A DNA stretch of 64,000 bases from Acidobacteriota bacterium. GTDB lineage: Bacteria; Acidobacteriota; Terriglobia; Versatilivoradales; Versatilivoraceae. Shown here piece after piece: positions 4,143-32,110 of the stretch. The number at the start of each line of letters is the position of its first letter. Within the stretch, counting starts at the first letter, position 1. The translations under genes were made by a program, and so were the position numbers. The stretch is from the NCBI GenBank assembly GCA_028875575.1, contig JAPPDF010000087.1, positions 14,147 through 78,146 of the forward strand, written 5' to 3'. The notes under the pieces were generated by a model. It was not told the DNA's origin. It made no database searches and worked only from the letters and a program-made list of their open reading frames with translations.

Positions 4143-4243
4143 GGCATGGAAGCAAAACTAGAGCGGCGGTGCCCCTTCGGTGGGGCAGGGCTGCCGGCCT
4201 CCCGGCTACCGGATGATGAGAGGCCTCAGCTTTGGAGAGGGTA

Positions 4244-5408: not shown

Positions 5409-5623
5409 GATTGGCCTTTCGCTGGGGTTCGGCTGGACGCGCTTGCCCCTTTCAGTCCACTCCAACCAGTCTATTTTGCCTGCTCCGGAAGCACAAGGGA
5501 CAATTGGAACGAGTGTTAGAACCGGTGAAGACAAAAATATTGAGGGAGGCGAATCCAGATTATAAACTGAGTGGACCGTTCGGCCTGAGCGGCCGGAGAA
5601 GGAGTGATTCCTTGAAGAGATTG

Positions 5624-7429
5624 ATGCTGGTCATTGGGGGCGTCATGGTCCTGGCGTCCGGATCGTTTTCGGGGCTGGCCGGATCGCAGGACGCAGCCGA
5701 GTCCACCTCGTCCGCGGCGGAAGAGTTCGTGCGCCAGGCGGAGGAACGCCTGCTGGGGCTCTGGACCGAGGCCGCCCGCGCCAGTTGGGTCCGGTCGACC
5801 TATATCACCGGAGACACCCAGGCTCTGGCTGCAGTGGCCAGCAAGCGGGCCATCGAGGCCACCGCCAGGCTGGCCAAGGAATCGTCGGGCTTCGAAACGG
5901 CCGGTTTGCCGAGGGAACTGGCAAGGAAACTGGAGCTGCTTCGACTGTCGCTGACGCTGGCCGCTCCTCCCGACCCCAAGGCCAGCGAGGAGCTCACTCG
6001 GCTGGTGACATCAATGGAATCCACCTATGGAAAAGGGAAGGTTTGCGGGGAGGCCGGCGACGAGTGTCGGAACCTGCAGGATCTATCCCGCATCATGGCT
6101 TCCAGCCGGGATCCGAAAGCGCTGAAAGCAGCCTGGACTGGCTGGAGAGGTATTTCTCCTCCAATGCGAAGGGATTTTCAGCGGTACGTGGAACTGGCCA
6201 ATCAGGGAGCCCGCAGCCTGGGATTCTCGGATACGGGCGCCATGTGGCGGGCCAAGTACGACATGCCTCCGGAGGCCTTCCTTCGAGAGCTGGATCGCCT
6301 GTGGGAGCAGGTGCGACCATTCTATCTCTCGCTGCATGCCTACGTGAGACAGCGGCTGAGAACCCACTACGGGCCGGAGGTGGTTCCCGCCGACGGTCCC
6401 ATTCCGGCTCACTTGCTGGGCAACATGTGGGCGCAAACCTGGTCCAACGTCTTCCCGCTGGTCGCGCCGCGGGAAACCGATCCGGGCTTCGATCTCACCG
6501 AGATTCTTCGGTCTCGAAAGACGACCCCAAGGCAGATGGTCTCCTACGGAGAGGGATTTTTCAGTTCGCTCGGATTCGCCCCCCTGCCGCAGAGCTTCTG
6601 GGATCGATCCCTGTTTGAAAAACCCCGCGACCGGGAGGTCATCTGCCATGCCAGCGCCTGGAACGTGGATGCGCGCGAGGATTTGCGCATCAAGATGTGC
6701 ATCGACATCACCGCCGAGGATTTCAATGTCATCCACCACGAGTTGGGTCACAACTACTATCAGAGAGCCTACAGCCAGCAGCCGGTCCTCTTCAGGGAAA
6801 GTGCCAACGACGGGTTCCACGAGGCCGTGGGTGACACCATTGCACTCTCCATCACTCCGCCCTACCTGGTAAGGCTCGGGTTGCTGGATCAGGTGCCCCC
6901 GTCGTCAAAGGACCTGGGGTTGCTGCTGCGCCAGGCGCTGGACAAGATTGCCTTCCTTCCCTTCGGCCTGCTGGTGGATCAGTGGCGCTGGAAGGTATTC
7001 TCCGGTGAGATTCCGCCCGACCGCTACAATCAGGCCTGGTGGGAGCTGAGAGGCAAGTACCAGGGCATCGCTCCCCCAGTGGCTCGTAGCGAAGACGACT
7101 TCGACCCGGGCGCCAAGTACCACGTGCCGGCCAACGTACCCTATACCCGTTACTTTCTGGCCCAAATCCTGCAGTTTCAATTCCATCGGGCCCTGGCTCG
7201 GGAAGCCGCCTGCGAGGACAGCCTCCATCGATGCTCCATTTACGGGAGTGAGGCTGCCGGCAAGCGCCTGCGTGCCATGCTCGCCATGGGGGCCAGCCGG
7301 CCCTGGCCGGAGGCGCTGGAGGTGTTGACGGGAGAACGGGATATGGATGCCACCGCAATTCTGGAATACTTTGCCCCGCTGCAGAAGTGGCTGGATGAAC
7401 AGAACAAGGGCCAGCCGGTAGGTTGGTAG
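5624..7429 (+). CDS. M2-family peptidyl-dipeptidase (angiotensin-converting-enzyme-like zinc metallopeptidase), secreted
   Basis: HEXXH zinc motif [10 protein letters not shown], followed downstream by the FHEAVGD glutamate motif and an ACE-like N-terminal region. The signal peptide is [14 protein letters not shown]; the ORF track starts at TTG 5411, so the start is uncertain. Confidence 0.8.
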
Positions 7430-9885: not shown

Positions 9886-9961
9886 GGGCGAGTAGCTCAG
9901 ATGGGAGAGCGCGGCGTTCGCAACGCCGAGGTCGAGGGTTCGATCCCCTTCTCGTCCACCA
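9886..9961 (+). tRNA. tRNA-Ala (anticodon CGC), 76 nt including encoded CCA
   Basis: Manual cloverleaf: acceptor GGGCGAG/CTCGTCC, D-arm GCTC-AGATGGGA-GAGC, anticodon stem CGGCG/CGCCG with loop TTCGCAA, and T-arm GAGGG-TTCGATC-CCCTT. The 3' 23 nt are the attL core of the downstream island. Confidence 0.85.
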
Positions 9962-10110
9962 TTTCCCCTTCCCGCCAATTCTTAGAAAATCCCATAAGTA
10001 ACTGATATAAAGGGAGTTATATTCCCTTTTTGTGCTTGCGTGTTCCTGCACAATCCCTTATAATCCTATATAGGTCGTGGGATAAAACGTGGGAGAAGCG
10101 CGGAGGGAAC

Positions 10111-11295
10111 ATGGGCAAGCTCACTGTTGTAAAGGTCAAATCTATCACAGAACCGGGGCGATACGGTGATGGCGGGACGCTGTTTCTGGTCGTTGCGCCC
10201 GGTGGATCGAAGTCCTGGGTGCAACGAATCGCCATCGACGGCAAGCGCCGGGACATTGGCCTGGGCGGCTGGCCGCTGGTGAGTCTGGCCGAAGCCAGAA
10301 TCAAGGCATTTGAGAATCGGAAGCTCGCCAGGGTGGACGGCGGCGATCCGCTGGCCGGGAAACGCAAGGCCAAGATGCCAACTTTCCAGGAGGCCGCCGA
10401 ACGCACATTTAGGGGGCTCAAGCCCAAGTGGCGAAACGCCAAGCACGCGGCGGACTGGTGGAGTTCTGTTGAGAGATACGCCTTTCCGATGGTCGGCAGT
10501 ACTCCGGTTGATCGAGTCCGCCGGGAGGACGTGCTGCGAATCCTGACGCCTATCTGGTCGAGCCGTCCGGAGCGGGCGCGGCGGCTGCGCCAGCGGATCC
10601 GGGCGATTTTTTCCTGGGCGCAAGCACACAACTACATTCCGGGAGAGAACGTGGCCGGCGAGGCAATCTCTGGAGCGCTGCCGACAATGGCGATCGGCAA
10701 AACTCACTTCCGGGCGCTGCCCTATCAGGAGGTCGCCGCGGCGCTTGCAAAGGTGGAGGGGACCAACGCGAGCATGGCCGCCAAGTACTGTCTCCGGTTT
10801 CTGGTATTGACGGCCGCCCGTAGTGGTGAGGCCCGGGAAGCGACCTGGAGCGAGATTGACCTGGACGCGAGAGAATGGCGCATTCCTGGCGAGCGAATGA
10901 AGGGCGGAGCCGAGCATCGGGTACCGCTGTCTGATGCCGCGGTCTCGGTACTGGAGCAGGCCCGGGTGCTGGATGATGGTTCCAGTCTGATTTTCCCTTC
11001 GGCGCTGAGGCCTGGGCGCTGTCTATCCAATATGACTTTAACCAAGCTGCTGCGGTCAACCGGCTTGGCCGAGCGGGCAACTGTGCACGGGTTTAGATCG
11101 AGCTTCCGTGACTGGTGCGGCGAGCGGGCGAATGTACCGCGCGAAATTGCTGAGGCCGCGTTGGCCCATACGGTCGGCGGTGTCGAGGGCGCCTATTTCC
11201 GAAGTGACTTGTTCGCCAAGCGGCGGCAGTTGATGGATCAGTGGGCCGCCTATCTGACCCGAGCTGTCGGGAAGGTGGTGCGGATCCATGGATAA
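10111..11295 (+). CDS. int: site-specific tyrosine integrase (P4-type, N-terminal DUF4102-like arm-binding domain)
   Basis: Catalytic signature HGFRSSFRDW...LAHTVGG...AYFRSDLFAKRR plus an N-terminal arm-binding domain. Lies immediately 3' of the tRNA, with RBS GGAGGG. Confidence 0.9.
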   Translation: MGKLTVVKVKSITEPGRYGDGGTLFLVVAPGGSKSWVQRIAIDGKRRDIGLGGWPLVSLAEARIKAFENRKLARVDGGDPLAGKRKAKMPTFQEAAERTFRGLKPKWRNAKHAADWWSSVERYAFPMVGSTPVDRVRREDVLRILTPIWSSRPERARRLRQRIRAIFSWAQAHNYIPGENVAGEAISGALPTMAIGKTHFRALPYQEVAAALAKVEGTNASMAAKYCLRFLVLTAARSGEAREATWSEIDLDAREWRIPGERMKGGAEHRVPLSDAAVSVLEQARVLDDGSSLIFPSALRPGRCLSNMTLTKLLRSTGLAERATVHGFRSSFRDWCGERANVPREIAEAALAHTVGGVEGAYFRSDLFAKRRQLMDQWAAYLTRAVGKVVRIHG

Positions 11296-11887
11296 GGTGG
11301 AAGCACTGATACGCAAGATACAGACACACCCTGCCTTCCACGGCGGTCCGGCTGATGAAGAATATTGGCTCGACTTTCTTGAGGCGACACTGGCGGAGTT
11401 TGGAACTTACGAGTTCCTGGTTGAGATGCAAGGAGAAGGATTAAGGCGGCGACCGGAGATGTTGGCTTTGTACATCCTTGCATCCCAAGAAGACCGGCTT
11501 GCTTGGGACGTGCTGGAAGCCCTTGTTAGACGACTTCGGCGGGGCGGCAAGCCCTTGCCAAATAGATTGGCTGAATGGTGGATAGATGCCGCAGCGGGGG
11601 TTCTCAAGAAACCGAAAGGAGGCGGGCGGGTTGCTCACCGAAACCGAATGAGGGACCTTGCGATTGCCGCAGCTGTCAACGGTATCCGCGACGTAACTGG
11701 GATACCCTACGAGTTCGATCAACGAATCTCCGCGCATCCTCGGACGGCCTGTCATGTTGTGGCGGAAAGGCTCAACATGAGCTATGGGGCCATCCGTTCA
11801 ATCTGGAGAAACATGAGGCCACATATCGAACGGGCTCGAGACCAAGGCCTCATTCTCCCACCCGGCAAGAAACAACGGCGACGTTAA
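11288..11887 (+). CDS. hypothetical protein (island-encoded)
   Basis: 199-aa ORF overlapping the int stop. No recognisable family; could be a regulator. Confidence 0.45.
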   Translation: MDKVEALIRKIQTHPAFHGGPADEEYWLDFLEATLAEFGTYEFLVEMQGEGLRRRPEMLALYILASQEDRLAWDVLEALVRRLRRGGKPLPNRLAEWWIDAAAGVLKKPKGGGRVAHRNRMRDLAIAAAVNGIRDVTGIPYEFDQRISAHPRTACHVVAERLNMSYGAIRSIWRNMRPHIERARDQGLILPPGKKQRRR

Positions 11888-11992
11888 CACCCTAAAACTA
11901 CTACCCCATATTTTCGGTATGTACCCGTGCGGGAAAGTTGGGCATTGTTTGGGAAAGCGGTGGATTTTCTGATCTCGAGAACTGGAGGAAAT

Positions 11993-12199
11993 ATGATTGA
12001 CCGACTTTTGACCCGAACGGAGGTAGAGCGGCGCTGTGGACTTGCCCGATCGACGGTCTACCGATTGATGAGGCAAAACTTGTTTCCTCTACCTTTGAAA
12101 CTTGGTGGAAAGGCCGTCCGCTGGCCTCAATCTGAAATTGAATCCTGGATCGCAAGCCGGCCCCGCGCAACTGGCGAGGGCTCCCGCGTGTCTGCCTGA
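11993..12199 (+). CDS. alpA: AlpA-family phage transcriptional regulator / excisionase-like HTH protein
   Basis: MIDRLLTRTEVERRCGLARSTVYRLMRQNLFPLPLKLGGKAVRWPQSEIESWIASRP matches the AlpA family. RBS GGAGG. Confidence 0.85.
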   Translation: MIDRLLTRTEVERRCGLARSTVYRLMRQNLFPLPLKLGGKAVRWPQSEIESWIASRPRATGEGSRVSA

Positions 12200-12254
12200 G
12201 CGCACAAAAAAAGCCCCAGGATGGCAGCCCGGGGCTGGCACGACGGTATGACCT

Positions 12255-13571
12255 ATGGACGGTGAGAGTAACACGTCTGCGGCCGACAAGCAACGGCCGG
12301 GGCGGGATGGACGTTTACCCGTCCAGGACGATAAAGGCAAGTGGCGATACTTCAACCTGGATCCGAGCGATTACGGCTACTATGCGCCGAACCTGGATGA
12401 TGCAACGCTGGTTCAATGGATCATCGAGGAAAAAGACCGGACCATCCGCTACCTGTTTGATACGGCCGAGGCCCGCGCCGACAATCCCACCTTTGAAGAG
12501 CTCCACCTTCCCGTTACCGCGGAACCGATCGAGCGCCAACCGTGCATCCTGGAGCGGTCCGATGGGGCCGCCATTCTGTATGCCGGCCGTTTTTCAACGT
12601 TGCACGGTGAGCCGGGCTGCGGCAAGTCCTGGGTGGCCCTGATTGCCGCCGGCAAGGCCATCGAGCGCGGCGGCCGGTGTCTCTGGATGGATTGCGAAGA
12701 TAGGCCCGGAACTGTGGCGACGCGGGCCGGCCCCTTGGGCCTGCTGGAGTCTGTCACCAATACGGACCGCTTCCGCTTTTACAATGCCCCGGAACTAATC
12801 GAGTCCAATGCCATCAAGGGCGAGGCCCTGGGGTGGTTGCTGACGGCCCCGGCCCCGCGCTTTTCCCTGGTGGTGATCGACAGCGCCGAAACCTGGGGCG
12901 GTGGCGGCCATGCTTCGGATGATGTAAATCCTTGGTTGGACAAGGCTGTTGATCCCTGGCGCAAGGCCGATGTTGCGGTCCTGCTGGTGGATCACATCCC
13001 AAAGCGCGAAAAGGACCGGCCCGCGGGGCCGATCGGAAGCCAAACCAAGCGCGCCAGGGTGGACGGTGCGGCCCTGCGGGTGGAAGGCGGCCGGCCCTAC
13101 CTGGACCGCAACCGACAGTTGCGATTTACCGGCGGACCGTGGACCAAAACCAAGGGCGGGCACGTCACCTTGCTGAACGAAAAAGACCGCATTGGCGACC
13201 TGGAGGCCGGGATGGGGCGGCCCATTGCGACCTTGGCCGGATCCTGGGACGCAAGCGGCGGTTTTGCCTGGGAGTTGGCCGCGCCCAAGGTCGAGGCCGA
13301 CACTGGAACCGAAGCCGAAGCGGGCGATATGGAAACGGTCTATGAGGCCATCAAGGCGGCCGGGCTGGAGGGGATCCGCGGAATTACCGCTGTGCAGGAG
13401 GCGGCCGGGATTCGGCGGTTCAAGGTGATTGAGGCCGTCCGGGGACTCGTGGAAGCTGGCCGGATCGAAAAGGAAAAGCAGGGGCGCGGATGGGTCTACC
13501 GGGTGGACGGCGGGGGCCTGACGCAAGAGGAAAAGGCCGAAGTTCAGGCCGCAATAGACTATGGGGATTAG
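12255..13571 (+). CDS. replication ATPase (RepA / AAA_25-like, RecA-fold P-loop) with C-terminal winged-helix
   Basis: Walker A GEPGCGKSW and Walker B LVVIDSAE, characteristic of plasmid/PICI replicative initiator-helicase loaders. The iteron array lies immediately downstream. Confidence 0.75.
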   Translation: MDGESNTSAADKQRPGRDGRLPVQDDKGKWRYFNLDPSDYGYYAPNLDDATLVQWIIEEKDRTIRYLFDTAEARADNPTFEELHLPVTAEPIERQPCILERSDGAAILYAGRFSTLHGEPGCGKSWVALIAAGKAIERGGRCLWMDCEDRPGTVATRAGPLGLLESVTNTDRFRFYNAPELIESNAIKGEALGWLLTAPAPRFSLVVIDSAETWGGGGHASDDVNPWLDKAVDPWRKADVAVLLVDHIPKREKDRPAGPIGSQTKRARVDGAALRVEGGRPYLDRNRQLRFTGGPWTKTKGGHVTLLNEKDRIGDLEAGMGRPIATLAGSWDASGGFAWELAAPKVEADTGTEAEAGDMETVYEAIKAAGLEGIRGITAVQEAAGIRRFKVIEAVRGLVEAGRIEKEKQGRGWVYRVDGGGLTQEEKAEVQAAIDYGD

Positions 13572-13700
13572 CGGTTCCGAGCGGTTCCGGGAACCGTTGT
13601 TTAGCGGTTCCGCCGGTTCTACGGTTCCCTAAAGGAACCGGAACCGGGAACCGATAAGCGGAAACAGGGCAAAATCATCAAGACGCGGGAACCGATAGCG
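13569..13700. promoter_or_regulatory. putative replication origin: ~10 iterons of CGGTTCC / GGAACCG in both orientations
   Basis: Direct reading of GCGGTTCCGAGCGGTTCCGGGAACCG...GCGGTTCCGCCGGTTCTACGGTTCCCTAAAGGAACCGGAACCGGGAACCG...GCGGGAACCG. SaPI/PICI ori sites sit 3' of rep in the same way. Confidence 0.6.
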
Positions 13701-13711
13701 AGGGGGTAACA

Positions 13712-14011
13712 ATGCCGACACCGAAGGGAAGCCGCTGGAGCCAATCACTGAGGCGGAACATGATGGCAGAACGCAACGGACGGACGGCCGACTGTGACGC
13801 GCTGGCGCTGCCCCTGGTCCGGTTGTGTCGGTCGCAAGGCTTCACCTTCGAGGAAACCGCGGCCGAGCTCGATAGGGCCGGACTCCCCACTTGCCGCACT
13901 CTGAGCCAGGGCAAGGCTTATCGGTGGTGCGCGGGGTCGGTGCGCAATCTCTGCCGCCGGCACGGGCTGGCGACGGCGAGGCGGAGCAAGCTGGACTGGA
14001 TAAGGGCGTGA
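13712..14011 (+). CDS. putative small terminase subunit / HTH DNA-binding protein
   Basis: 99-aa ORF directly upstream of terL with a predicted HTH (GFTFEETAAELDRAGL). The assignment rests on position and is tentative. Confidence 0.35.
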   Translation: MPTPKGSRWSQSLRRNMMAERNGRTADCDALALPLVRLCRSQGFTFEETAAELDRAGLPTCRTLSQGKAYRWCAGSVRNLCRRHGLATARRSKLDWIRA

Positions 14012-14075
14012 TGGCACCGGCGGCGGATTGCTTGGGGGTCGCACCTCGCCACGGGGGCTTTCTGTGTAACTCGAA

Positions 14076-15503
14076 ATGAATCAGCTTCGACGATTTCAAA
14101 GGCGGTTTCTGGCACGGGCGACAGCTCGCGGGGTCGATACGGCCGTGCTGTGTCTACCCCGTGGTAACGGGAAATCCTGGCTGGCGGGACACTTGGCGGC
14201 GCGGGTTCTGTCTCCGGCCGATCGTCTATTCCGTCCTGGGACTGAGTCGGTCTTGTGCGCGGCCTCGATCGAGCAGGCCAGGATAGTCTTTCGGTTTGTG
14301 CGCGCAATCCTGGAACCAAGGGGCGGCTATCGGTTTTTGGACAGCAACACGCGAATAGGGATCACACACACGGCCAGCAATACTAAGCTGCGGGTGATCG
14401 GATCGAACGGCAAGACGGCCATGGGCCTTGTCGGTTGCCCCTGGGTGATTGCCGACGAACCTGGGGCCTGGGAAGTGAGGGGCGGGACGTTGGTTCATGA
14501 CGCCATCGAAACCGCCAAGGGAAAGCCGGGCTCACCACTCCGCGCCGTCTACATAGGGACGCTGGCGCCATCAACGGGCGGCTGGTGGCACGATCTGGTT
14601 AAGGACGGATCGGGGCCGGGCGTGTACGTGCAGGTGCTGCAGGGGGATCGCAAGACCTGGGACCGCTGGCCAACCATCCGCAAGGCAAACCCACTGACGG
14701 CGATATCGGCAGACTTCCGGGCCAAGCTACTACAGGAGCGGGACGCAGCAAGGCGGGACACTCGGCTAAAGGCTCGGTTTCTGTCCTACCGGTTGAACAT
14801 CCCGACAGCCGACGAAAGCGAGGTCTTGCTGACGGTGGAGGATTGGGAGCGAGTGACGGCCAGGGCGGTCCCGGATCGGGAAGGCCTGCCGATGTTCGCC
14901 TATGACTTGGGCGGCGGCCGCGCATGGTCCGCGGCGGTGGCGCTGTGGCGCAACGGCCGAACCGAAGCCCTGGCGGTTGCCCCTGGAATTCCCTCGCTGG
15001 AAGATCAGGAGAAACGGGACCGCGTACCGGCTGGCCTCTACCGCAAGCTGGAGGAATCCGGCCGGCTGCTGGTTGCCGATGGGTTCCGGGTTCCGGCGCC
15101 GGCATTCCTTCACGGTTCGGCCGTGGCGGCCTGGGGCGGCCCCGATTGCATCCTGTGTGATCGCTTCCGCCTTCCCGAGCTGGCGGACGCGGTGAACGGT
15201 GCGCGGCTGGTTCCAAGAGTTACGCGGTGGAGCGAGGCGAGCGAGGATATCAGGGGCCTGCGGAAGCTGGCGGCCGATGGGCCGCTGTCGGTGGAAACCG
15301 GATCGCGGGATCTGTTGACGGCCTCTCTGTCGGTGGCCATGGTTAAAAACGACGATCAAGGCTCGGTCCGGTTGGTCAAGCGGGGATCGAATAACACGGC
15401 GCGGGATGATGTGGCGGCGGCCTGGCTGCTGGCTGCCGGCGCGTTGTCGCGGTGGATCCGCCGGCCCCGACGTCCTCGCTGGCGCTATCGAGGGGCGGTG
15501 TGA
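14076..15503 (+). CDS. terL: phage terminase large subunit (TerL)
   Basis: Walker A LPRGNGKSW, an ATPase domain and a C-terminal nuclease-like domain typical of TerL. Its stop overlaps the HNH start (TGATG). Confidence 0.85.
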   Translation: MNQLRRFQRRFLARATARGVDTAVLCLPRGNGKSWLAGHLAARVLSPADRLFRPGTESVLCAASIEQARIVFRFVRAILEPRGGYRFLDSNTRIGITHTASNTKLRVIGSNGKTAMGLVGCPWVIADEPGAWEVRGGTLVHDAIETAKGKPGSPLRAVYIGTLAPSTGGWWHDLVKDGSGPGVYVQVLQGDRKTWDRWPTIRKANPLTAISADFRAKLLQERDAARRDTRLKARFLSYRLNIPTADESEVLLTVEDWERVTARAVPDREGLPMFAYDLGGGRAWSAAVALWRNGRTEALAVAPGIPSLEDQEKRDRVPAGLYRKLEESGRLLVADGFRVPAPAFLHGSAVAAWGGPDCILCDRFRLPELADAVNGARLVPRVTRWSEASEDIRGLRKLAADGPLSVETGSRDLLTASLSVAMVKNDDQGSVRLVKRGSNNTARDDVAAAWLLAAGALSRWIRRPRRPRWRYRGAV

Positions 15504-15796
15504 TGGATCGGGCGGGCTCGAGGTTCTATGCCAGCATCCGGGGCCGGCGCTGGGATCGGGTCCGCCGGCGCGAACTCAAGCGCACCGGCTACCGCTGCGA
15601 GCGGTGCGGCAAGGCTGGCCGTCTCGAGGTCCACCACAAGCGGCCGCTGCACCGGGGCGGGGATGCCTACGCGGCCGATAACCTGGCCGTCCTTTGTCGG
15701 CGCTGTCATATTGAGGCGCACCGGCGACCCCTGAGTGATGAGGCGCAACGGTGGGCCGACCTGCTGAGGGGGGTTTTTCTTGCAGGGAAGATTTAA
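15503..15796 (+). CDS. HNH endonuclease (packaging-associated)
   Basis: Zinc-finger HNH motif CERCG...LEVHHKRPLHRGG...NLAVLCRRCH. HNH endonucleases next to terminase are typical of HK97-like and cf-PICI packaging modules. Confidence 0.85.
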   Translation: MDRAGSRFYASIRGRRWDRVRRRELKRTGYRCERCGKAGRLEVHHKRPLHRGGDAYAADNLAVLCRRCHIEAHRRPLSDEAQRWADLLRGVFLAGKI

Positions 15797-15832
15797 CAAT
15801 TGTATATTATTTGTAGATTTCGAGAGGGCAAG

Positions 15833-16294
15833 ATGAAAAAAAAGCCAATTCGATACCACGTCCAAATCAACGGAGACGGGAAGGGCGGCCCGGCAATGAT
15901 GGCAGACGGCACTCCCGAGGGCGAAATTCTGGAGGTCGCGCCGGTAACGACCGTTCGGGTAAATCGTGAAACCCGAAACTTGATTGACCGGTGCGGGCGG
16001 TTGCTGTCGGAATTGCCGGAGCCGCAACGGTCAAACCTGCGCTTTGTACTGTGCGCGACCGGCGGCGCCGTCCCGGCCCCTGGGGCGAAAATTCCCGCTG
16101 GTGAGGTCATTCATTACGCACTCGCGGCCCTCGAGGCAAACCTGGACCCCCAGGCGCGGGCGCAGCGCGAGGCCGCAGAAATGGCATATCAAAACTACCT
16201 GGAGCACTTGAGGAATGCGCACAAGGTCCGGGACGGGGTTGCGCGTGACGCGGACGGAAACCCCATTCCGGATCGAATTTCGGATGGGGAGTAA
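15833..16294 (+). CDS. hypothetical protein (island-encoded)
   Basis: 153-aa ORF between HNH and capsid with no recognisable family. Confidence 0.4.
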   Translation: MKKKPIRYHVQINGDGKGGPAMMADGTPEGEILEVAPVTTVRVNRETRNLIDRCGRLLSELPEPQRSNLRFVLCATGGAVPAPGAKIPAGEVIHYALAALEANLDPQARAQREAAEMAYQNYLEHLRNAHKVRDGVARDADGNPIPDRISDGE

Positions 16295-16324
16295 CGGAAG
16301 TCAGTTTTTCATGGAGGGTCGATC

Positions 16325-17617
16325 ATGACCAATTCGCAACGGCTGGCCGTCCGACTGTCGGAGATCCGGCAACGGCTGAATGAGATTGCAGGGCTGGAGG
16401 GTGACGCCTTCACCGACGAAATCCGGCAGGAAGCCGACCGGCTGCAAACCGAGTTCCGGGCCAAGGAAACGCAGTATCGGGCGGCCTTGGTAGCCGAGGG
16501 CGAGTCCGAAAGCCGGGCCCTGGAAACCGAGCCGGACGCCGAGCGCCGGGAGCGCCTGGAGCTGCGCAGCCGGGCCAACCTGTCGGCCTACCTACGGGCG
16601 GCGCTGTCGGGCCGGAGAGTGGACGGAGCCGAACGGGAGTTGCAGGAGGCCGCCGGCATCGGGGACGGCATCCCAATCGAGCTATGGGACACGGTGGCCC
16701 CGGAGGAACGGGCCGAGCATCGGCAGGGTGACGCGGCAACGGCTGCCCCTGGGACGGTCGGGGTCAACCTGGACCGGATCAGGCCGGCCGTGTTCGCGCA
16801 GTCTATCCTCCCGGGACTTGGGGTGGAAATGCCCCGAGTCGAGTCCGGCACCTACGCAAGCGCCACGATTACCACGTCCCTGACGGCCGCCAGCAAGGCC
16901 AAGGGCGCGGCACAGGAAGCCACCGCGGCGGCCTTCACGGTGACGTCGGTTACTCCCAAGCGGATCAGCGCCAGGTTGGGGATTCGGATTGAGGACGTGG
17001 CGGCCATAGGTCAAGGAAATTTCGAACCAATTTTGCGCGAAAATTTATCCCTGGTCCTGTCGGACGAATTGGACAAGCAAGGGCTGAACGGGGCCGGCAG
17101 CAATTCCGGGGCGGATCTGGTGGGCTTGTTTCACCGATTGACGGATCCAAGCGCCCCGGACACCTTGGCCACGTTCGACCTTTTCGCTGCGGCCCTGGCC
17201 GGCGGGGTTGATGGCCTTTGGGCGCTGAGTCAAAGGGACGTGGCGCTGCTGGTGGGGCCGGACACCTATCAGTTGGCCGGAAAGACCTTTCAATCGGCCG
17301 CCAATTACAAGGGCGAGCTTTCGGCCGCGTCCTACCTGATGGCCCAATCCGGAGGCTTCAAGACCAACAAGCGGATGCCGGACGCAGCCAACAAACTCCA
17401 GCAAGGCATCCTCTTTCGGATGGGACGGTCCATGATGGGCGGGACCGGAGCCATGCGGACGGCGGTTTGTCCCCACTGGAACGAAATTTCAATCAACGAC
17501 ATTTACAGCGGGAGCGCCAAGGGTGAGCGGTTCTTTACAATGCACGTCCTGCTCGGGGACGTGATCCTGGTTCAGCCGGACGCTTACTCTCAAATCGCTT
17601 TCAAGGTCGCGGCCTAA
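16325..17617 (+). CDS. phage major capsid protein, HK97 family (with N-terminal coiled-coil delta/scaffold-like domain)
   Basis: N-terminal ~120-aa coiled coil followed by an HK97-fold-like region (GVNLDRIRPAVFAQSILPGLGVEMPRV...FTVTSVTPKRISARLGI...). Size and placement within the head module fit an HK97 MCP. Confidence 0.7.
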   Translation: MTNSQRLAVRLSEIRQRLNEIAGLEGDAFTDEIRQEADRLQTEFRAKETQYRAALVAEGESESRALETEPDAERRERLELRSRANLSAYLRAALSGRRVDGAERELQEAAGIGDGIPIELWDTVAPEERAEHRQGDAATAAPGTVGVNLDRIRPAVFAQSILPGLGVEMPRVESGTYASATITTSLTAASKAKGAAQEATAAAFTVTSVTPKRISARLGIRIEDVAAIGQGNFEPILRENLSLVLSDELDKQGLNGAGSNSGADLVGLFHRLTDPSAPDTLATFDLFAAALAGGVDGLWALSQRDVALLVGPDTYQLAGKTFQSAANYKGELSAASYLMAQSGGFKTNKRMPDAANKLQQGILFRMGRSMMGGTGAMRTAVCPHWNEISINDIYSGSAKGERFFTMHVLLGDVILVQPDAYSQIAFKVAA

Positions 17618-17720
17618 AGGGGCCGCGCTGGCGCTGCGGCCGCGCCTGCTGGCGTTTCTAAGGCTCCAGGGTGGTCTATACCTCCGAGACCATCCTGGGG
17701 CCGTTTTTGCAGGATTTGCC

Positions 17721-18191
17721 ATGGGATCTGTCCTGATAAGCGGTCCGGCCGGGGCTGGCAAGAGCCAGGAAGCCAAGCGCCGGCGCGATGCGGCCAGCCG
17801 TCCGACGGTGGTTGCAGACTTTCAATCCCTGGTTGTGGCCATGCTCCAGCAAGAGCGCGGTCCGGATGGGAAGTATCCAGAGCGGCCGGAATGGATCCTG
17901 CCCCTTGCCGAGTACACGAGGCGGGCCGTTATCACGGCGGCGCGCAAGCGCGGGATTGACGTGGTAGCAACCAATTCTGACGGGGATCCCGGCCGGCGGC
18001 GGTTCCTGCTGGAGATCCTGGGGCCGCGGCGGGAAGATTTTGGCCCGGCCCTGGAGGGTACGGAGGAAGTCATTGTGGATCCGGGCGAAGAAGTGATAGC
18101 GCGGCGGCTGGCCGGGAAGTCGGGGCGGCTGTCGAGGGCCTGCAAGCAAGCGTCCGATCGGTGGTATAGACGCCTTCCGGGGCGGCGGTAG
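17721..18191 (+). CDS. P-loop NTPase / kinase-like protein (AAA_33 / zeta-toxin-like fold)
   Basis: Walker A GPAGAGKSQ at the N-terminus. It is a small 156-aa protein in an unusual position inside the head module. Confidence 0.55.
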   Translation: MGSVLISGPAGAGKSQEAKRRRDAASRPTVVADFQSLVVAMLQQERGPDGKYPERPEWILPLAEYTRRAVITAARKRGIDVVATNSDGDPGRRRFLLEILGPRREDFGPALEGTEEVIVDPGEEVIARRLAGKSGRLSRACKQASDRWYRRLPGRR

Positions 18192-18671
18192 GTGAGCATG
18201 GAACACGAAAGCCGAACGGTTGAAATCCGGTTTGAGTCTGATGCCGAGCGCATGAGTCCCGGCCGCCTGGTGGGCGTCTTGCTGCCCTACGGCGAGCGGG
18301 CGAGCGACCGGCCGGAAGTGTTTGAGGCCGGGGCCTTGCATTGGCCGGCCGATGGCGTCTTGCTGAGGGCCATGCACAAGCGGCAAGATCCCATTGCGCG
18401 GTTCATTCCCGAGGCCACGGAAACCGAGGTCCGGGTATCGATCGAGCTGCCGGACACCACGGCCGGCAGGGACGCGGCCACAAACGTCCGGGCGGGTGTC
18501 CTGCGGGGCCTGTCTGTTGAGTTCCGGGCCGAAAAGGAGACGCGCCGGGACGGGCTGCGGGTAATCCAGCGGGCGCGCCTGGTGGGCGCTGGTCTGGTGG
18601 ATTCGGGGGCCTACTCGGGCGCAACGGTGGAGGCCAGGGGCAAGGCCAAGAGGCGGCGGTTATGGCTGTAA
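18192..18671 (+). CDS. HK97-family phage prohead protease (peptidase S78/U35)
   Basis: Sequence pattern VEIRFESDAERMSPGRLVGVLLPYGERASDRPEVFEAGAL...GLSVEFRA is typical of prohead maturation proteases. Confidence 0.7.
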   Translation: MSMEHESRTVEIRFESDAERMSPGRLVGVLLPYGERASDRPEVFEAGALHWPADGVLLRAMHKRQDPIARFIPEATETEVRVSIELPDTTAGRDAATNVRAGVLRGLSVEFRAEKETRRDGLRVIQRARLVGAGLVDSGAYSGATVEARGKAKRRRLWL

Positions 18672-18976
18672 CGATTACGGCCGAGGAACTGCGGCAACGA
18701 GTGTCCGGGGTGGCCGAAACACACGCGGCGCAGCTTCGGAAAGTGGCAAAGGCGATAGTTGAGGCCGAGGCGCCGAACGCGCCGTCATGCGTTCAGAATG
18801 AAGCCGTGGTGAGGCTTGCTGGCTACCTGGCCCAATCCGATTTCGGCGGGATTGTGGAGGAGGAGCTGGGAGCGAAGCGGGTCGAGTATGCCGTCAACCA
18901 TGCGGCCATGTTTCACCGATCCGGGGCCAAGGGATTATTGAGCCGGTGGAAGCGCCGGCGAGCTGGGGCGATATGA
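18662..18976 (+). CDS. phage head-tail connector (gp6-like) protein
   Basis: ~100-aa gp6-like protein placed between protease and portal. Its stop overlaps the portal start (ATGA). Confidence 0.55.
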   Translation: MAVTITAEELRQRVSGVAETHAAQLRKVAKAIVEAEAPNAPSCVQNEAVVRLAGYLAQSDFGGIVEEELGAKRVEYAVNHAAMFHRSGAKGLLSRWKRRRAGAI

Positions 18977-20049
18977 TCGAGCTGGGGATTTCACAATTCA
19001 GGCCGGAGCGGCGGCAATCGGGCGGGAGCTTCACCGATGCCGTTGTGCGGTTGCTGGAAGCTCAAGCGGCCGGGACGGCGGCAAGCACCGGATCAACGGC
19101 CGCGGTCGAGGCGGCTGCCGGCGCACTCTCCCGGGCCCTGGCGGCGGCTGAGGTCTCGGGGCCTGAGTGGGCGACCGGGGCGGTGTCTGCCGAGTTCCTG
19201 GGGCAAGTCGGGCGCGACCTGGTGAGGTCGGGTCAATCCCTGCACGTCCTGGACGTGGACAACGCGGGGCGGGTATCCCTTCTGCCGGCGGCAAGCTGGC
19301 ATTTCGAGGGATCGGCCCATCCGTCAAGCTGGAGCGTTCGGGCCACGGTCTACGGACCATCAACGTCCGTCACTCGCCACTTGCCCTTTTCGGGGGTCGT
19401 GTTTGTCAAGTGGGGGTCCACTCCCGGCCAGCGGTACACAGGGACCGGGCCGCTATCCTGGGCCAATATCACGGCACGACTGCAATCGGAGTCCGAGCGG
19501 TCCCTGGCCGACGAGGCCGGCGGGCCGATTGCCAATCTGCTGGCCATCCCTCAGGACGGCGGGGACGGGACCGACGAGGATCCCTTGAAGGAACTGAAGG
19601 CCGATCTCCGGACGGCCAGGGGCAAGGCGCTGTTGCTGGAAACCACGGCGGCCGGTTGGGGCGATGGCAGGCTGTCGGCCCCTCAAAGGGACTGGAAGGC
19701 CGAGCGGTTGGGGCCGGCGCCGGCGGCCGGGCTGGTACAAGTCCGGGCCGATGCCTTTAAGGCCGTCCTGGCCGCTGCTGGGTGTTCGGTCGCCATGTTT
19801 GATGATTCCGACGGCACAAGCAAGCGAGAAGCCCTGCGGCAGTTCTTTCTAGGGACCGTGCAACCGCTGGCCCGGATGTTGCAGGCCGAGCTCGCGGCCA
19901 AGCTGGAAGCGCCGATCCGGCTGGGCTTCGATCTTTACAACGTGGACCTGGCCGGCCGGGCACAGTCGTTTCAGAAGTTAGTCGCGGGCGGGATGGACCT
20001 TGCCAAGGCGGCAGGATTGGCTGGGTTGATGGACATGGAGGCCGGTTAA
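18973..20049 (+). CDS. phage portal protein, HK97 family
   Basis: The C-terminal region (LLAIPQDGGDGTDE...SVAMFDDSDGTSKREALRQFFLGTVQPLARMLQAEL) matches the conserved portal clip/wing motifs. Start taken at the ATGA overlap (the track ORF begins at 18946). Confidence 0.7.
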   Translation: MIELGISQFRPERRQSGGSFTDAVVRLLEAQAAGTAASTGSTAAVEAAAGALSRALAAAEVSGPEWATGAVSAEFLGQVGRDLVRSGQSLHVLDVDNAGRVSLLPAASWHFEGSAHPSSWSVRATVYGPSTSVTRHLPFSGVVFVKWGSTPGQRYTGTGPLSWANITARLQSESERSLADEAGGPIANLLAIPQDGGDGTDEDPLKELKADLRTARGKALLLETTAAGWGDGRLSAPQRDWKAERLGPAPAAGLVQVRADAFKAVLAAAGCSVAMFDDSDGTSKREALRQFFLGTVQPLARMLQAELAAKLEAPIRLGFDLYNVDLAGRAQSFQKLVAGGMDLAKAAGLAGLMDMEAG

Positions 20050-20117
20050 CCGATACCGGTTCGTTCCCTTAGGGACAGAGCTAGGCACACCTTCGGGGCC
20101 AAGCTATAATTTCGGCA

Positions 20118-20966
20118 ATGAAACGAATGTGTTGTGTCAACCTGTTGGGCGGACTGGCCCTGTCTATATTGACCCTTACTCTCTGGTGGCATTGGGATTG
20201 GGTCGTGTCGTCCTCAGGGGAGTCCGGCTCAACGATCCTTCGAAACCTTGGGCTCGTATACGGTGGTCTCATTGCGATTTGGGTAGCCCTCTGGCGTGGT
20301 GTGGTGGCTGATCGACAGGCGGAGGCTTCCAGAGTCCAAGGCGAATCCTCCATGCAGCTAGCGAAGGCTGCCGAAGTCCAAGCTGATACTTCGCAGCGCG
20401 GGCTACTGAACGAGCGTTACCAAAGGAGCGCAGAAATGCTTGGCAGCAAGGTGATGGCTGTCCGCTTGGGAGGCATATTTGCGCTGCATCGTTTGGGCAA
20501 ACACGACCCAGAGCAATACCATGTCCAAACAATGCGGCTATTGAGTTCGTTCGTGTGCTACCCAACTGAGGAAGCTAGATCAACGGACCGCGAGGATGTT
20601 CGGGTCGCATTGGCGGTTATCGGTACCCGGAACAAAGCCGATATTGCACTTGAGAGGAAAGAGGCATATCGTGTGTTCCTGATTTCTGCAGACCTGTCCA
20701 ACATGATCCTGCGAGGGCCAAACCTGACCGGTGCGAAGCTGATAGGTGCAAACCTAACCAATACATTTTTGGGCACGGCCAACCTAACCGGTGTCCACCT
20801 ATTCGACGCGAATCTGACCAGGACGGATCTCTCCCGAACGAGAGGCCTAACCCAATTTCAGCTCGATGAAGCGTGCGCTGATCCAGCCGGTCCACCCAAG
20901 TTAGGTAGCCTTTGTGATGCCAGAACTGGTGAGCCTTTAGTTTGGAATGACAATCCTTGCAGTTAG
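20118..20966 (+). CDS. membrane-anchored pentapeptide-repeat protein (island cargo gene)
   Basis: Two N-terminal TM helices followed by consecutive pentapeptide repeats (ADLSNMILRGPNLTGAKLIGANLTNTFLGTANLTGVHLFDANLTRTDLSRT). Its GC is visibly lower (~50%) than the surrounding ~64%. Confidence 0.7.
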   Translation: MKRMCCVNLLGGLALSILTLTLWWHWDWVVSSSGESGSTILRNLGLVYGGLIAIWVALWRGVVADRQAEASRVQGESSMQLAKAAEVQADTSQRGLLNERYQRSAEMLGSKVMAVRLGGIFALHRLGKHDPEQYHVQTMRLLSSFVCYPTEEARSTDREDVRVALAVIGTRNKADIALERKEAYRVFLISADLSNMILRGPNLTGAKLIGANLTNTFLGTANLTGVHLFDANLTRTDLSRTRGLTQFQLDEACADPAGPPKLGSLCDARTGEPLVWNDNPCS

Positions 20967-21078
20967 CCCTTGGCGGAGCAAGTGCTCCGTTCGGCTCTGG
21001 CATTCGTGGGATCAAACGTGGTAAAAATTTGATTAGGTTTTTCTTAAATGACTTTATATCAGTTTGTTAGACTGATCA

Positions 21079-21101
21079 TTCGATCCCCTTCTCGTCCACC
21101 A
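21079..21101 (+). repeat. attR: 23-bp direct repeat of the tRNA-Ala 3' end
   Basis: TTCGATCCCCTTCTCGTCCACCA is identical to 9939..9961. Confidence 0.85.
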
Positions 21102-21621
21102 AACTCCATCCCAAGAAAGTCCGAGCGGTTCTGGTATTACCCTATAATCAACGTTTTAAAATCTTCAGCCGACCATTCCCATCCAACATTCCCATCTGAT
21201 AGCCCGGGGTAACTGACGGCCGGTCAGTTACGGGAAAAAGTCGCCCCCACCGTACGGCGCAGCGATATTAGCATTCGTCGGGCTCAGTCTGCCAAATCAT
21301 CCGGAAAATTGTTGGACGGAGGCTTCTCGTGTCTCGGAGTGCTCCACTCGTCCGGAAGTAGCTGACCGCACGGTGCTTACGGTCACCGTAAGTGCTTTTG
21401 CCGGCACCTACTCCTCCTGTAATTGCGTTTCAACCCACCGTAGGCCAATTCCCCGGGCGCGTTTCATTCCGGCTGCCATCGCGTCCACCGACAATGGGCG
21501 TTTTTTCCGTCAGCACTGGCGCGAGAACTGGTCGGAAGGGCAGAACAGCCAGGTTGGATTTACCAATCAGTTCCGGTATGCCTTACTATCTGTAGGATCA
21601 GAACTTCAGAGAAATAGGAAC

Positions 21622-31930: not shown

Positions 31931-32110
31931 GGTGAGTTGCCCGTTTTTGAGATCGGACCGGGCCAATTTCAGCCAATCGGCCGGCACATTGGGCGAATTT
32001 CTCGCCATTGATAGATCTGACAGGCTGGTCGACAGAACCTACCGGTAGATCCAAAATCAGTTTAACACAAATGGAAACCTATGAAAAAGAAAGGCTTTTT
32101 GCCACATTGG

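What the first reader, a model, noticed from the sequence alone, without database searches (positions are those of the whole stretch)
13569..13700. Iteron array (about 10 copies of CGGTTCC/GGAACCG in both orientations) immediately 3' of the rep ATPase gene: candidate satellite ori
The 130-bp intergenic stretch is almost entirely GGTTCC/GGAACC heptamers, some arranged as short palindromes (CGGTTCCGGGAACCG). Iterons directly downstream of pri-rep are the hallmark of SaPI/PICI replication origins and of RepA-type plasmid oris. This supports autonomous replication of the island.
Basis: partly seen in the sequence, partly recalled or inferred. Interest (0 to 1): 0.6.

Follow-up and report, generated by a model that had tools for sequence, protein, structure and literature searches.

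The report
Replication origin of a capsid-forming phage satellite
The cluster of short repeats just after the rep gene is real. It is most likely the site where the island's own helicase-type initiator binds to start copying an 11-kb phage-satellite-like island, an expected kind of feature found here in a previously undescribed family.

Summary
Nine exact CGGTTCC/GGAACCG heptamers, plus one 6/7 copy, lie in 13572-13694, where about 0.06 are expected. They start 1 nt after the rep stop codon.

The array sits in an 11.1-kb island at tRNA-Ala, bounded by 23-bp att repeats. The island carries int, alpA, rep, TerL, HNH, capsid, protease and portal, but no tail or lysis genes.

All 15 related loci examined have an array at the rep stop codon. 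The plan is the same throughout: direct units, a unit palindrome, and inverted units around a C-run/G-run hairpin. The heptamer itself differs between loci.

The unit tracks the start of the recognition helix of Rep's C-terminal winged helix. It does not track the integrase, the regulator, the small downstream ORF or TerL. In two loci the head module lies upstream on the other strand, yet the array stays 3' of rep.

Two small actinobacterial plasmids have homologous ATPases but no packaging genes. Both carry the same array-plus-hairpin, which argues against a cos/pac site.

Best reading (about 0.8): a Rep-bound origin that works like SaPI/PICI origins. It differs in using a RecA-fold ATPase and a GC-rich palindrome instead of an AT-rich centre. 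This is a new variant of a known kind, and nothing has been tested experimentally.

The parts
12255..13571 (+). rep: 438-aa RecA-fold (AAA_25) ATPase with a C-terminal winged helix; the putative initiator-helicase
   Evidence: Pfam AAA_25, E 5.9e-11. The AF2 model matches RecA/KaiC/Twinkle by Foldseek. Distant homologues are annotated as phage primase/helicases. Homologue P0016 carries a DnaG zinc ribbon plus Toprim plus AAA_25.
13305..13505 (+). Coding region of the Rep C-terminal winged-helix domain (residues 351-417). The specificity segment, residues 385-392, is nt 13407-13430.
   Evidence: Secondary structure H1-H2-H3-wing. All top Foldseek PDB hits are winged-helix DNA binders (MarR, ArsR, AspA, BlaI, KAT6A WH-DNA), best E 4.5e-3, TM about 0.5. 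Only the three CGGTTCC loci have RR at positions 387-388.
13572..13620 (+). Left iteron set. CGGTTCC at 13572, 13582 and 13605, a 6/7 copy at 13614, and an inverted copy at 13590 that forms the palindrome CGGTTCCGGGAACCG.
   Evidence: The first two copies are spaced 10 bp apart. Positionally homologous sites are seen in relatives (alignment A2).
13622..13640 (.). Central hairpin/palindrome CGGTTCC-CTAAA-GGAACCG. This is the window's version of the C-run/loop/G-run hairpin conserved across the family.
   Evidence: The hairpin is present in the DNA fold of the whole array, which has z -3.6. A C-run/G-run hairpin is found in 13 of 16 loci, always with the C-run first on the rep strand. It is also present in plasmids L021 and L020.
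13634..13653 (-). Right iteron set: three abutting GGAACCG copies (13634, 13640, 13647), in the opposite orientation to the left set
13654..13687 (.). Unit-free, less GC-rich spacer. Its minimum is 40% GC over 25 nt, against 61% for the window. It is a candidate unwinding region and/or the promoter of the downstream operon.
   Evidence: An equivalent low-GC stretch lies to the right of the hairpin in most relatives. No sigma-70-like promoter was found there.
13688..13694 (-). Distal GGAACCG copy, just upstream of the ribosome-binding site (GAGGGGG, 13700-13706)
   Evidence: An equivalent last copy is present in L003 and L004.
13712..14011 (+). 99-aa ORF downstream of the array, function unknown. 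Not the determinant of the repeat unit.
   Evidence: No Pfam or PHROG hit. It is homologous in L001 but unrelated to the ORF at the same position in L004, which has the same unit.
9939..9961 (+). attL: the 3' end of tRNA-Ala(CGC) (gene at 9886-9961)
   Evidence: Exact 23-nt direct repeat with 21079-21101.
21079..21101 (+). attR. The island spans 11.1 kb.
   Evidence: family D5.
10030..11295 (+). Tyrosine integrase
   Evidence: Pfam Arm-DNA-bind_3, Phage_int_M and Phage_integrase.
11927..12199 (+). AlpA-type regulator/excisionase
   Evidence: Pfam Phage_AlpA, E 1.8e-16.
14076..15503 (+). Large terminase
   Evidence: phrog_9, E 5e-37.
15452..15796 (+). HNH endonuclease (ORF limits given; the real start is probably near 15500)
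   Evidence: Pfam HNH, E 6e-11; tblastn.
16325..17617 (+). Major capsid protein (HK97-type)
   Evidence: Weak Pfam Phage_capsid hit. 30% identity, E 1e-26 to 1e-28, to the L009 protein that carries PF05065.
18192..18671 (+). Prohead protease (S78)
18946..20049 (+). Portal protein
   Evidence: phrog_12. Pfam Phage_portal, E 1.2e-8 but 35.0 bits, below the family's 39.1-bit gathering cut-off. Homologues in L001, L002 and L006 carry PF04860.

Best explanation
The array is the replication origin of an 11.1-kb capsid-forming, phage-satellite-like island.

Proposed mechanism: the island's Rep is a RecA-fold (SF4-like) ATPase with a C-terminal winged helix, and that winged helix recognises the heptamer CGGTTCC. 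Copies in direct orientation, spaced about one helical turn apart right after the rep stop codon, nucleate a Rep oligomer. Oppositely oriented copies on the two sides of a central palindrome position Rep assemblies facing each other. The palindrome, and/or the adjacent less GC-rich spacer, is then opened so that the ATPase rings load themselves as helicases. Priming would come from the host or a helper phage, because no primase was found in the island.

Shown here: the array exists. It is tied to rep across the family. Its unit co-varies with the start of Rep's recognition helix. It occurs in plasmids that have no packaging genes.

Inferred: Rep binding, helicase activity, melting at the palindrome, and replication itself.
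For: (1) Enrichment: 9 exact copies in 123 bp against about 0.06 expected.

(2) All 16 loci with a Rep homologue have a short-unit array at or just after the rep stop codon. All share one plan, with 14 different unit strings among them, some near-identical.

(3) In L009 and L013 the head genes (in L009 the terminase too) lie on the other strand upstream of rep, yet the array stays 3' of rep. The small ORF that follows the array in L007 is homologous to the one that sits next to TerL, away from the array, in L009.

(4) The window, L001 and L004 share CGGTTCC. L004, however, has an unrelated integrase, regulator and downstream ORF, and a TerL of the other lineage at 33% identity. L005 has a TerL 86% identical to the window's but the unit CGTTTCC.

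(5) L004 and L006 are near-identical elements: int 96.5%, p166 100%, regulator 98.6%, capsid 95%. Their Rep is only 64% identical. Every site changed in concert from CGGTTCC to CGTTTCT, while the flanking non-unit bases stayed the same.

(6) Within the winged helix, close pairs differ mainly at residues 385-392, the turn plus the N-terminus of helix 3. For L004/L006, 38/52 residues are identical outside the segment and 3/8 inside. For L016/L017 the figures are 47/51 and 5/8. RR at 387-388 is found only in the three CGGTTCC loci.

(7) The C-terminal domain model matches only winged-helix DNA binders.

(8) Streptomyces plasmid p-XQ-29-C and Kineococcus plasmid pKRAD02 encode homologous AAA_25 ATPases and show no capsid or terminase genes in the regions examined. 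Both have the same array plus C/G hairpin at the 3' end of that gene.

(9) The placement and layout match what is experimentally established for SaPI/PICI origins (PMC9371898; PMC6092414).
Against: There is no experimental evidence of any kind.

The centre of the array is a GC-rich palindrome rather than the AT-rich melting region of known PICI origins. The only lower-GC stretch is modest, 40% GC over 25 nt.

No primase was detected in the island.

The RecA fold also includes non-helicase ATPases such as RecA and KaiC, which are the top structural hits. RSF1010 RepA was not retrieved by the profile search of the PDB.

The covariation rests on few loci and on inspection of a short segment, not on a formal test.

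The array also occupies the region just upstream of the next operon, so a regulatory role, alone or in addition, is not excluded.

The most distant homologue context examined (L011) shows no such array.
Confidence: 0.8

Rival explanations
1. The array is the packaging signal (a cos or pac site with terminase-binding repeats, like lambda cosB). It lies just upstream of the small ORF and the TerL-HNH genes.
For: In the window and in most relatives the array lies directly upstream of a small ORF followed by TerL and HNH. A GC-rich dyad could in principle be a cleavage site.
Against: The array stays with rep when the head module is inverted and upstream (L009, L013). The unit does not follow TerL lineage or the small ORF family. 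The same array plus hairpin occurs in two plasmids that show no capsid or terminase genes in the regions examined. A near-perfect palindrome would give self-complementary ends, unlike known cohesive ends (own knowledge).
Confidence: 0.04
2. The array is only a transcriptional control region between the early (rep) and late (head) genes. It would act as a terminator or roadblock, or as an operator bound by Rep acting as a regulator, with the true origin elsewhere.
For: The array lies between two co-directional gene blocks, and its last unit abuts the ribosome-binding site of the next ORF. The pattern scan flags a terminator-like hairpin at 13575-13592. The strong hairpin could stop or stabilise transcripts.
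Against: No other candidate origin or second array exists in the island. The hairpin lacks a T tract in most relatives, and its sequence (C-run first) is conserved rather than free to covary. The downstream gene differs completely among loci, including the plasmids, while the array keeps its plan. The binder carries a helicase-family ATPase. A dual role remains possible.
Confidence: 0.1
3. The array is a centromere-like or other architectural site, bound by the winged helix for segregation or for excision/integration (for example integrase arm sites or AlpA sites).
For: The C-terminal domain resembles the centromere-binding winged helices AspA and TubR, among many other winged helices. Arm-type integrase sites are also short repeats.
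Against: L004 shares the unit with the window but has an unrelated integrase and regulator. L004 and L006 have 96-100% identical integrase and regulators but different units. The array is 3.6 kb from attL. The resemblance to AspA and TubR is generic to the fold, at E 0.006 to 0.5 (AspA 0.006-0.07; TubR 0.035-0.5). No ParA-type partner is present.
Confidence: 0.03

Closest known systems
SaPI / PICI replication origins (Rep or Pri-Rep plus iterons)
   Same: The origin lies immediately 3' of the rep ORF. It has 6-12 very short iterons, in sets pointing in opposite directions on the two sides of a centre. Rep is an ATPase with a C-terminal winged helix that sets iteron specificity. The rep-ori pair diverges as a cassette between otherwise similar islands (PMC9371898; PMC6092414; compare).
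   Different: The ATPase here is RecA-fold (AAA_25, SF4-like), not the AAA+ SF3/MCM-like SaPI Rep. The centre is a GC-rich palindrome or C-run/G-run hairpin rather than an AT-rich tract. Units are heptamers. No primase gene was found.
Capsid-forming PICIs (cfPICI, e.g. EcCIEDL933)
   Same: A 10-18 kb island with an integrase, AlpA, a replication module, TerL, HNH, capsid, protease and portal. It has no tail or lysis genes, and all genes run in one direction (PMC10085698; bioRxiv 10.1101/2025.02.11.637232).
   Different: Small terminase, head-tail adaptor and connector were not recognisable. The gene order is unusual, with the portal last. The Rep is of a different family. The hosts are outside the Proteobacteria and Firmicutes where cfPICIs were described: Dehalococcoidia MAGs and an unidentified diderm for the window.
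Satellite phage P4 alpha protein with its ori/crr octamer repeats (own knowledge)
   Same: One protein combines the replication ATPase with a C-terminal winged-helix origin-binding domain that recognises short repeats in both orientations.
   Different: P4 alpha has an N-terminal primase and a different helicase class. Its repeats are split between two sites (ori and crr) and are not placed at the 3' end of the gene. No sequence relationship was tested.
SV40 large T antigen and papillomavirus E1 origins (own knowledge)
   Same: Short 5-6 bp sites are arranged as inverted pairs around a central palindrome, which assembles two self-loading helicase hexamers head to head.
   Different: These are eukaryotic viruses with AAA+ SF3 helicases, unrelated DNA-binding domains and flanking AT tracts.
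IncQ plasmid RSF1010: RepA helicase, RepC, oriV (own knowledge)
   Same: A plasmid-encoded RecA-fold hexameric helicase works at an origin that combines iterons with hairpin-forming initiation signals.
   Different: In RSF1010 the iteron binder (RepC), the helicase (RepA) and the primase (RepB') are separate proteins, and the iterons are about 20 bp direct repeats. RSF1010 RepA was not among the PDB hits of the Rep profile.
Archaeal plasmid pRN1: ORF904 with a stem-loop origin downstream of the gene (PMC4234260)
   Same: The origin is a structured element just downstream of the gene for a multifunctional replication protein.
   Different: In pRN1 the origin is a single 100-nt stem-loop, no heptamer array is described, and the protein is a prim-pol plus SF3 helicase.

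Membership tests
PICI/SaPI-type origin | Located immediately 3' of the rep ORF | tested here: met
   The first unit starts 1 nt after the stop codon. The same holds in all 15 related loci.
PICI/SaPI-type origin | Six to twelve very short iterons | tested here: met
   9 exact heptamers plus one 6/7 copy.
PICI/SaPI-type origin | At least two iterons on each side of the centre, pointing in opposite directions | tested here: met
   To the left of the hairpin loop there are four exact CGGTTCC copies and one 6/7 copy (plus one inverted GGAACCG copy at 13590). To the right there are four GGAACCG copies.
PICI/SaPI-type origin | AT-rich region at the centre of the origin | tested here: not met
   The centre is a GC-rich palindrome. 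Only a modest off-centre low-GC spacer exists at 13654-13687, with a 40% GC minimum.
PICI/SaPI-type origin | Rep has a C-terminal winged-helix domain that determines iteron specificity | tested here: met
   The fold is predicted, and all top hits are winged-helix proteins. The unit co-varies with residues 385-392. Binding itself was not tested.
PICI/SaPI-type origin | Rep ATPase of the SaPI Rep type (AAA+, SF3/MCM-like) | tested here: not met
   Pfam AAA_25. Foldseek and PDB profile hits are RecA, KaiC and Twinkle.
PICI/SaPI-type origin | The rep-ori segment drives autonomous replication | not testable with these tools
   This needs cloning. The only indirect support is the same module in two plasmids.
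cfPICI (capsid-forming PICI) | Island of 10-18 kb bounded by att sites, with an integrase | tested here: met
   11.1 kb between 23-nt repeats at tRNA-Ala. Integrase domains found.
cfPICI (capsid-forming PICI) | Own TerL, HNH, capsid, protease and portal | tested here: met
   The portal's Pfam score (35.0 bits) is below the 39.1-bit gathering cut-off and the capsid's Pfam hit is weak; both rest also on PHROG hits and on homologues that carry the domains.
cfPICI (capsid-forming PICI) | Small terminase, head-tail adaptor and connector | tested here: inconclusive
   The ORFs of 99, 164 and 104 aa have no Pfam or PHROG hit, and the 156-aa ORF only a weak sub-threshold one (AAA_33). SatelliteFinder profiles were not available.
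cfPICI (capsid-forming PICI) | No tail module and no lysis genes | tested here: met
   None was detected among the ORFs between attL and attR. Element size and gene content are conserved in L001 and L006, which are flanked by host genes on both sides; L010 shares the gene order.
cfPICI (capsid-forming PICI) | Induction and tail supply by a helper phage | not testable with these tools
   No helper is known. No relative was found in IMG/VR.
Terminase recognition site (cos/pac) | Linked to and co-varying with the terminase genes; present only in packaged elements | tested here: not met
Classical iteron plasmids (Rep_3/RepA winged-helix initiators) | Direct iterons of about 17-22 bp, bound by a WH1-WH2 Rep with no ATPase | tested here: not met
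   The units are 7 bp and occur in both orientations. Rep has no Rep_3 hit and is an ATPase.

The most novel reading that the evidence does not exclude
The array, together with this Rep, defines an undescribed class of self-loading initiator-helicase replicon. The class would consist of a RecA-fold (SF4-like) ATPase fused to a specificity-determining winged helix, acting on heptamer iterons arranged around an invariant C-run/G-run palindrome. That palindrome would be extruded or melted in place of an AT-rich unwinding element. The module would be shared by capsid-forming satellites of at least two distant bacterial lineages and by actinobacterial plasmids, and it would be convergent with the AAA+-based SaPI/PICI, P4 and SV40 designs.
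Probability: 0.35. Interest if true: 0.65.

Novelty: new variant of a known kind. Interest (0 to 1): 0.45.

Why it matters
If correct, the layout known from SaPI/PICI origins has been built a second time on an unrelated ATPase scaffold. That layout is short iterons directly after rep, read by a C-terminal winged helix on the helicase itself.

It would also extend capsid-forming satellites to Dehalococcoidia and to an unidentified diderm, lineages where no phage satellites have been described.

The natural variants offer a ready-made specificity code to test. There are 14 unit strings, each paired with a change at the start of the recognition helix. Near-isogenic pairs such as L004/L006 differ essentially in rep plus array.

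The invariant C/G hairpin raises a concrete question: how is an origin opened without an AT-rich element?

In practice, rep plus about 150 bp could serve as a compact replicon for genetically intractable high-GC bacteria.

Tried and rejected
- Packaging-site reading: rejected after the L009/L013 gene order, the TerL and small-ORF dissociations, and the two plasmids.
- Integrase arm sites or AlpA operator: rejected from the L004-versus-window and L004-versus-L006 comparisons.
- Known RNA element: no Rfam family reaches threshold in the window apart from the tRNA. Only sub-threshold noise falls in 13400-13900.
- Promoter: no sigma-70-like site lies in the array. The one terminator-like call, at 13575-13592, is made of the units themselves and its T-rich tail is not conserved.
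- More relatives: IMG/VR gave none. JGI metagenomes gave one 1.1-kb fragment, L018, which was not usable. Only 17 protein homologues were found in the 5.8-billion-protein set.
- L011, a distant homologue (33-34% identity) in an integrative element with an integrase but no head or terminase genes: no array found. The association therefore may not extend to the whole AAA_25 superfamily.
- RSF1010 RepA as a direct relative: not retrieved at E <= 1.
- The unit-like 15-mer just outside attR (21120-21134): a single 6/7 copy, treated as chance.
- Host identification: only hints were obtained, namely a secretin and PSD1/PSCyt2 proteins.
Full report
**Observation**

GGAACCG or its complement occurs nine times between 13572 and 13694. 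Four copies are CGGTTCC on the + strand (13572, 13582, 13605, 13622). Five are GGAACCG (13590, 13634, 13640, 13647, 13688). A 6/7 copy lies at 13614-13620.

The rest of the 64-kb window holds 31 copies and never more than two within 150 bp. About 0.06 copies are therefore expected in 123 bp, Poisson P about 2.5e-17. Two unit palindromes exist: CGGTTCCGGGAACCG at 13582-13596, and CGGTTCC-CTAAA-GGAACCG at 13622-13640. The latter forms the central hairpin of a fold that is more stable than shuffled sequence (z -3.6).

Units occupy about half of the 140-bp intergenic stretch, not nearly all of it. A 34-bp unit-free, less GC-rich spacer precedes the last copy.

**Context**

The array lies inside an 11.1-kb island. 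The island is bounded by an exact 23-nt direct repeat: the 3' end of tRNA-Ala(CGC) at 9939-9961 and its copy at 21079-21101.

All island genes are on the + strand. In order they are:
- a tyrosine integrase
- a 199-aa ORF
- AlpA
- the 438-aa AAA_25 protein called rep
- the array
- a 99-aa ORF
- TerL and HNH
- a 164-aa ORF
- an HK97-type capsid protein
- a 156-aa ORF
- an S78 protease
- a 104-aa ORF
- a portal protein
- a pentapeptide-repeat protein

No tail or lysis genes are present. This matches the published gene-content criteria for capsid-forming PICIs (PMC10085698; bioRxiv 10.1101/2025.02.11.637232). The small terminase, adaptor and connector could not be recognised.

**The Rep protein**

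Pfam gives AAA_25. An AlphaFold model built on a shallow 10-sequence alignment (pLDDT 72) matches RecA, KaiC and the Twinkle helicase. A profile search of PDB sequences agrees.

Distant homologues in phages are annotated as primase/helicase or primase/polymerase. One homologue, P0016, carries a DnaG zinc ribbon and a Toprim domain in front of the AAA_25 domain. The ATPase therefore belongs with SF4-type replicative helicases, although helicase activity is inferred.

Residues 351-417 form helix-helix-helix-wing. Modelled alone, this domain retrieves only winged-helix DNA binders: MarR, ArsR/SmtB, Sso10a, AspA, BlaI and a KAT6A WH-DNA complex. The scores are modest, best E 4.5e-3 and TM about 0.5.

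**Relatives**

The family is rare. There are 17 homologues in the 5.8-billion-protein set, the best at 60% identity. Six more loci come from Dehalococcoidia MAGs. IMG/VR has none, and JGI metagenomes gave one fragment.

Fifteen loci with usable flanks were read. Every one has a short-unit array starting at or within a few tens of bases of the rep stop codon, each strongly enriched over its own background.

The plan is shared:
- two to four direct units at an 8-10 bp period
- an inverted unit that makes a palindrome
- a spacer
- one more forward unit
- a hairpin made of a C-run, a 3-6 nt loop and a G-run
- one or more reverse units
- a lower-GC stretch
- often a last reverse unit just before the next ribosome-binding site

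The hairpin was found by pattern in 13 of 16 loci, always with the C-run first on the rep strand. The window and L014 have shorter versions.

The unit itself differs between loci:

| Unit | Loci |
|---|---|
| CGGTTCC | window, L001, L004 |
| CGGGTCY | L002 |
| CGTGTCC | L003 |
| CGTTTCC | L005 |
| CGTTTCT | L006 |
| CGTGCCT | L007 |
| CGTGGCG | L009 |
| TGAGTCC | L010 |

L012-L017 carry further units.

**Which protein reads the unit?**

Natural variation separates the candidates.

- Position. In L009 and L013 the head genes (in L009 the terminase too) lie on the opposite strand upstream of rep, yet the array is still directly 3' of rep. The small ORF that follows the array in L007 is homologous (E 2e-8) to the ORF that precedes TerL, far from the array, in L009.
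- Small ORF. The window and L001 share one family. L004, L005 and L006 share another. L004 has the same unit as the window but an unrelated small ORF.
- TerL. The window's TerL is 86% identical to that of L005, whose unit is CGTTTCC. It is only 32-35% identical to those of L001 and L004, which have the window's unit.
- Integrase and regulators. L004 has no detectable similarity to the window's integrase or AlpA. L004 and L006 are 96.5%, 100% and 98.6% identical in integrase, p166 and the 72-aa regulator, but their units differ.
- Rep. Between L004 and L006, Rep is only 64% identical. In the DNA alignment every site has changed in concert, while the bases between sites, the hairpin and an AAGCGGGG motif are kept.

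Within the winged helix, close pairs differ mainly at residues 385-392, the turn and the first residues of helix 3. For L004/L006, 38/52 residues are identical outside the segment and 3/8 inside. For L016/L017, whose units GTGTCCC and GTGTACC differ by one base, the figures are 47/51 and 5/8. Only the three CGGTTCC loci have Arg-Arg at 387-388.

This is the pattern expected if helix 3 of Rep reads the unit. The sample is small and no formal phylogeny-corrected test was run.

**Plasmids**

A translated search of 72,556 plasmids with Rep found only two records. Both are small actinobacterial plasmids with no capsid or terminase genes in the regions examined.

In Streptomyces griseoaurantiacus p-XQ-29-C (7.9 kb), the AAA_25 ATPase is 31% identical over 192 aa. 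Starting 1 nt after its stop codon come seven forward CCTGCCC units. Then comes the hairpin CCCCACCCCCCCCTCTAGGGGTGGG, and then a reverse unit. Eight of the plasmid's ten copies lie within 174 bp.

In Kineococcus radiotolerans pKRAD02 (12.9 kb, circular), about nine GGGAACCACC/GGTGGTTCCC units surround the hairpin CCCGGTTCCCCG-TCTAGTAC-CGGGGAACCGGG. They begin right after a winged-helix-like segment. The annotated ORF reads on through the array as a low-complexity tail.

The module therefore travels with the ATPase in autonomous replicons. That removes the packaging-site reading and makes an origin the simplest account.

**Mechanism (inferred)**

Published work on SaPI Reps shows self-loading helicases whose C-terminal winged helix binds 5-6 bp iterons. 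Those iterons lie immediately downstream of rep. Sets on either side of an AT-rich centre point in opposite directions, and two hexamers are thought to load there (PMC9371898). Gram-negative PICIs share that origin layout, and a rep-ori clone replicates (PMC6092414).

By analogy, I propose three steps. Rep oligomers nucleate on the phased direct units. Opposed units place two assemblies facing each other across the palindrome. The palindrome, or the neighbouring low-GC spacer, then opens for helicase loading. Priming would be by a host or helper primase.

There are three differences from the known family. The ATPase is non-homologous (RecA fold rather than AAA+). The centre is GC-rich and sequence-conserved rather than AT-rich. 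No primase is present.

**Rivals**

- A purely regulatory role, as terminator or operator between early and late genes, is not excluded and could coexist with origin function (about 0.1).
- A packaging site is now unlikely (about 0.04).
- Integrase, AlpA or centromere sites are unlikely (about 0.03).

**Verdict**

The feature is what one expects next to a satellite's rep gene, so the finding on its own is not surprising.

The added value is threefold. The island belongs to an undescribed, cross-phylum family of capsid-forming satellite-like elements. Its initiator is built on a different ATPase from known PICIs. Its origin plan, including an invariant C/G hairpin, recurs in actinobacterial plasmids. 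I classify it as a new variant of a known kind, interest 0.45.

Noticed in passing
window 9939-21101: The finding sits in an intact 11.1-kb island at tRNA-Ala(CGC) with exact 23-nt att repeats. The island has head genes but no tail or lysis genes, and islands of similar size and content recur in unrelated metagenome contigs and in Dehalococcoidia MAGs. No relative was found in IMG/VR.
   Followed up: partly
window 14076-20049: The head-module gene order is unusual: TerL, HNH, 164 aa, capsid, 156 aa, protease, 104 aa, portal. The portal comes last instead of directly after the terminase. The order is conserved in L001, L002, L005, L006 and L010.
   Followed up: partly
window 17721-18191: A conserved 156-aa ORF between the capsid and protease genes gives weak P-loop kinase-like hits (Pfam AAA_33, E 9e-4). 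Its L009 counterpart hits AAA_16 and AAA_33 weakly. Its function in a head module is unexplained.
   Followed up: no
window 20118-20966: The last gene inside the island encodes a 282-aa pentapeptide-repeat protein, in a region of lower GC (53-57%). It is probably cargo and is absent from the relatives examined.
   Followed up: no
window 14076-15503; L001-L017: Two TerL lineages, about 32% identical to each other, are shuffled among otherwise similar elements. One lineage is in the window, L005, L010, L012 and L017. The other is in L001-L004, L006, L009 and L016. This indicates modular exchange of the terminase.
   Followed up: partly
L004 1-8633 versus L006 5857-14511: These are near-isogenic elements (int 96.5%, p166 100%, regulator 98.6%, capsid 95%). 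In them only rep (64%), the array unit and the small downstream ORF (51%) have diverged. The rep-ori segment therefore behaves as a cassette, perhaps reflecting incompatibility or immunity between co-resident satellites.
   Followed up: partly
L003, L004, L006 arrays; window 13655-13669: A conserved motif (GATAGCAAGCGGGG, AAGCGGGG-like) lies just to the right of the hairpin-proximal reverse unit. A related inverted motif (ATCGCTTGAT) lies in the left spacer. Neither is explained by the heptamer. They may extend the inner binding sites or bind a second factor.
   Followed up: no
L020 (NC_009660.1 pKRAD02) locus 4038-4230: The annotated 891-aa 'AAA family ATPase' ORF reads through the repeat array as a low-complexity tail. 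Either the annotation over-extends the ORF, or the array genuinely overlaps coding sequence.
   Followed up: no
window 21120-21134 and 21373-21846: Just outside attR there is a single unit-like 15-mer, TCCGAGCGGTTCTGG (6/7 match to the unit), probably by chance. A MazE-like antitoxin ORF follows in a lower-GC stretch (about 20.5-22.5 kb), which might be a remnant of another mobile element.
   Followed up: no
window 5411-7429; 29675-32008; 57922-60282: Host genes include an angiotensin-converting-enzyme-like M2 peptidase, a TPR-secretin, and a PSCyt2/PSD1 (DUF1549/DUF1553) protein. These point to a diderm host that is not Dehalococcoidia, so the satellite family spans distant lineages.
   Followed up: no
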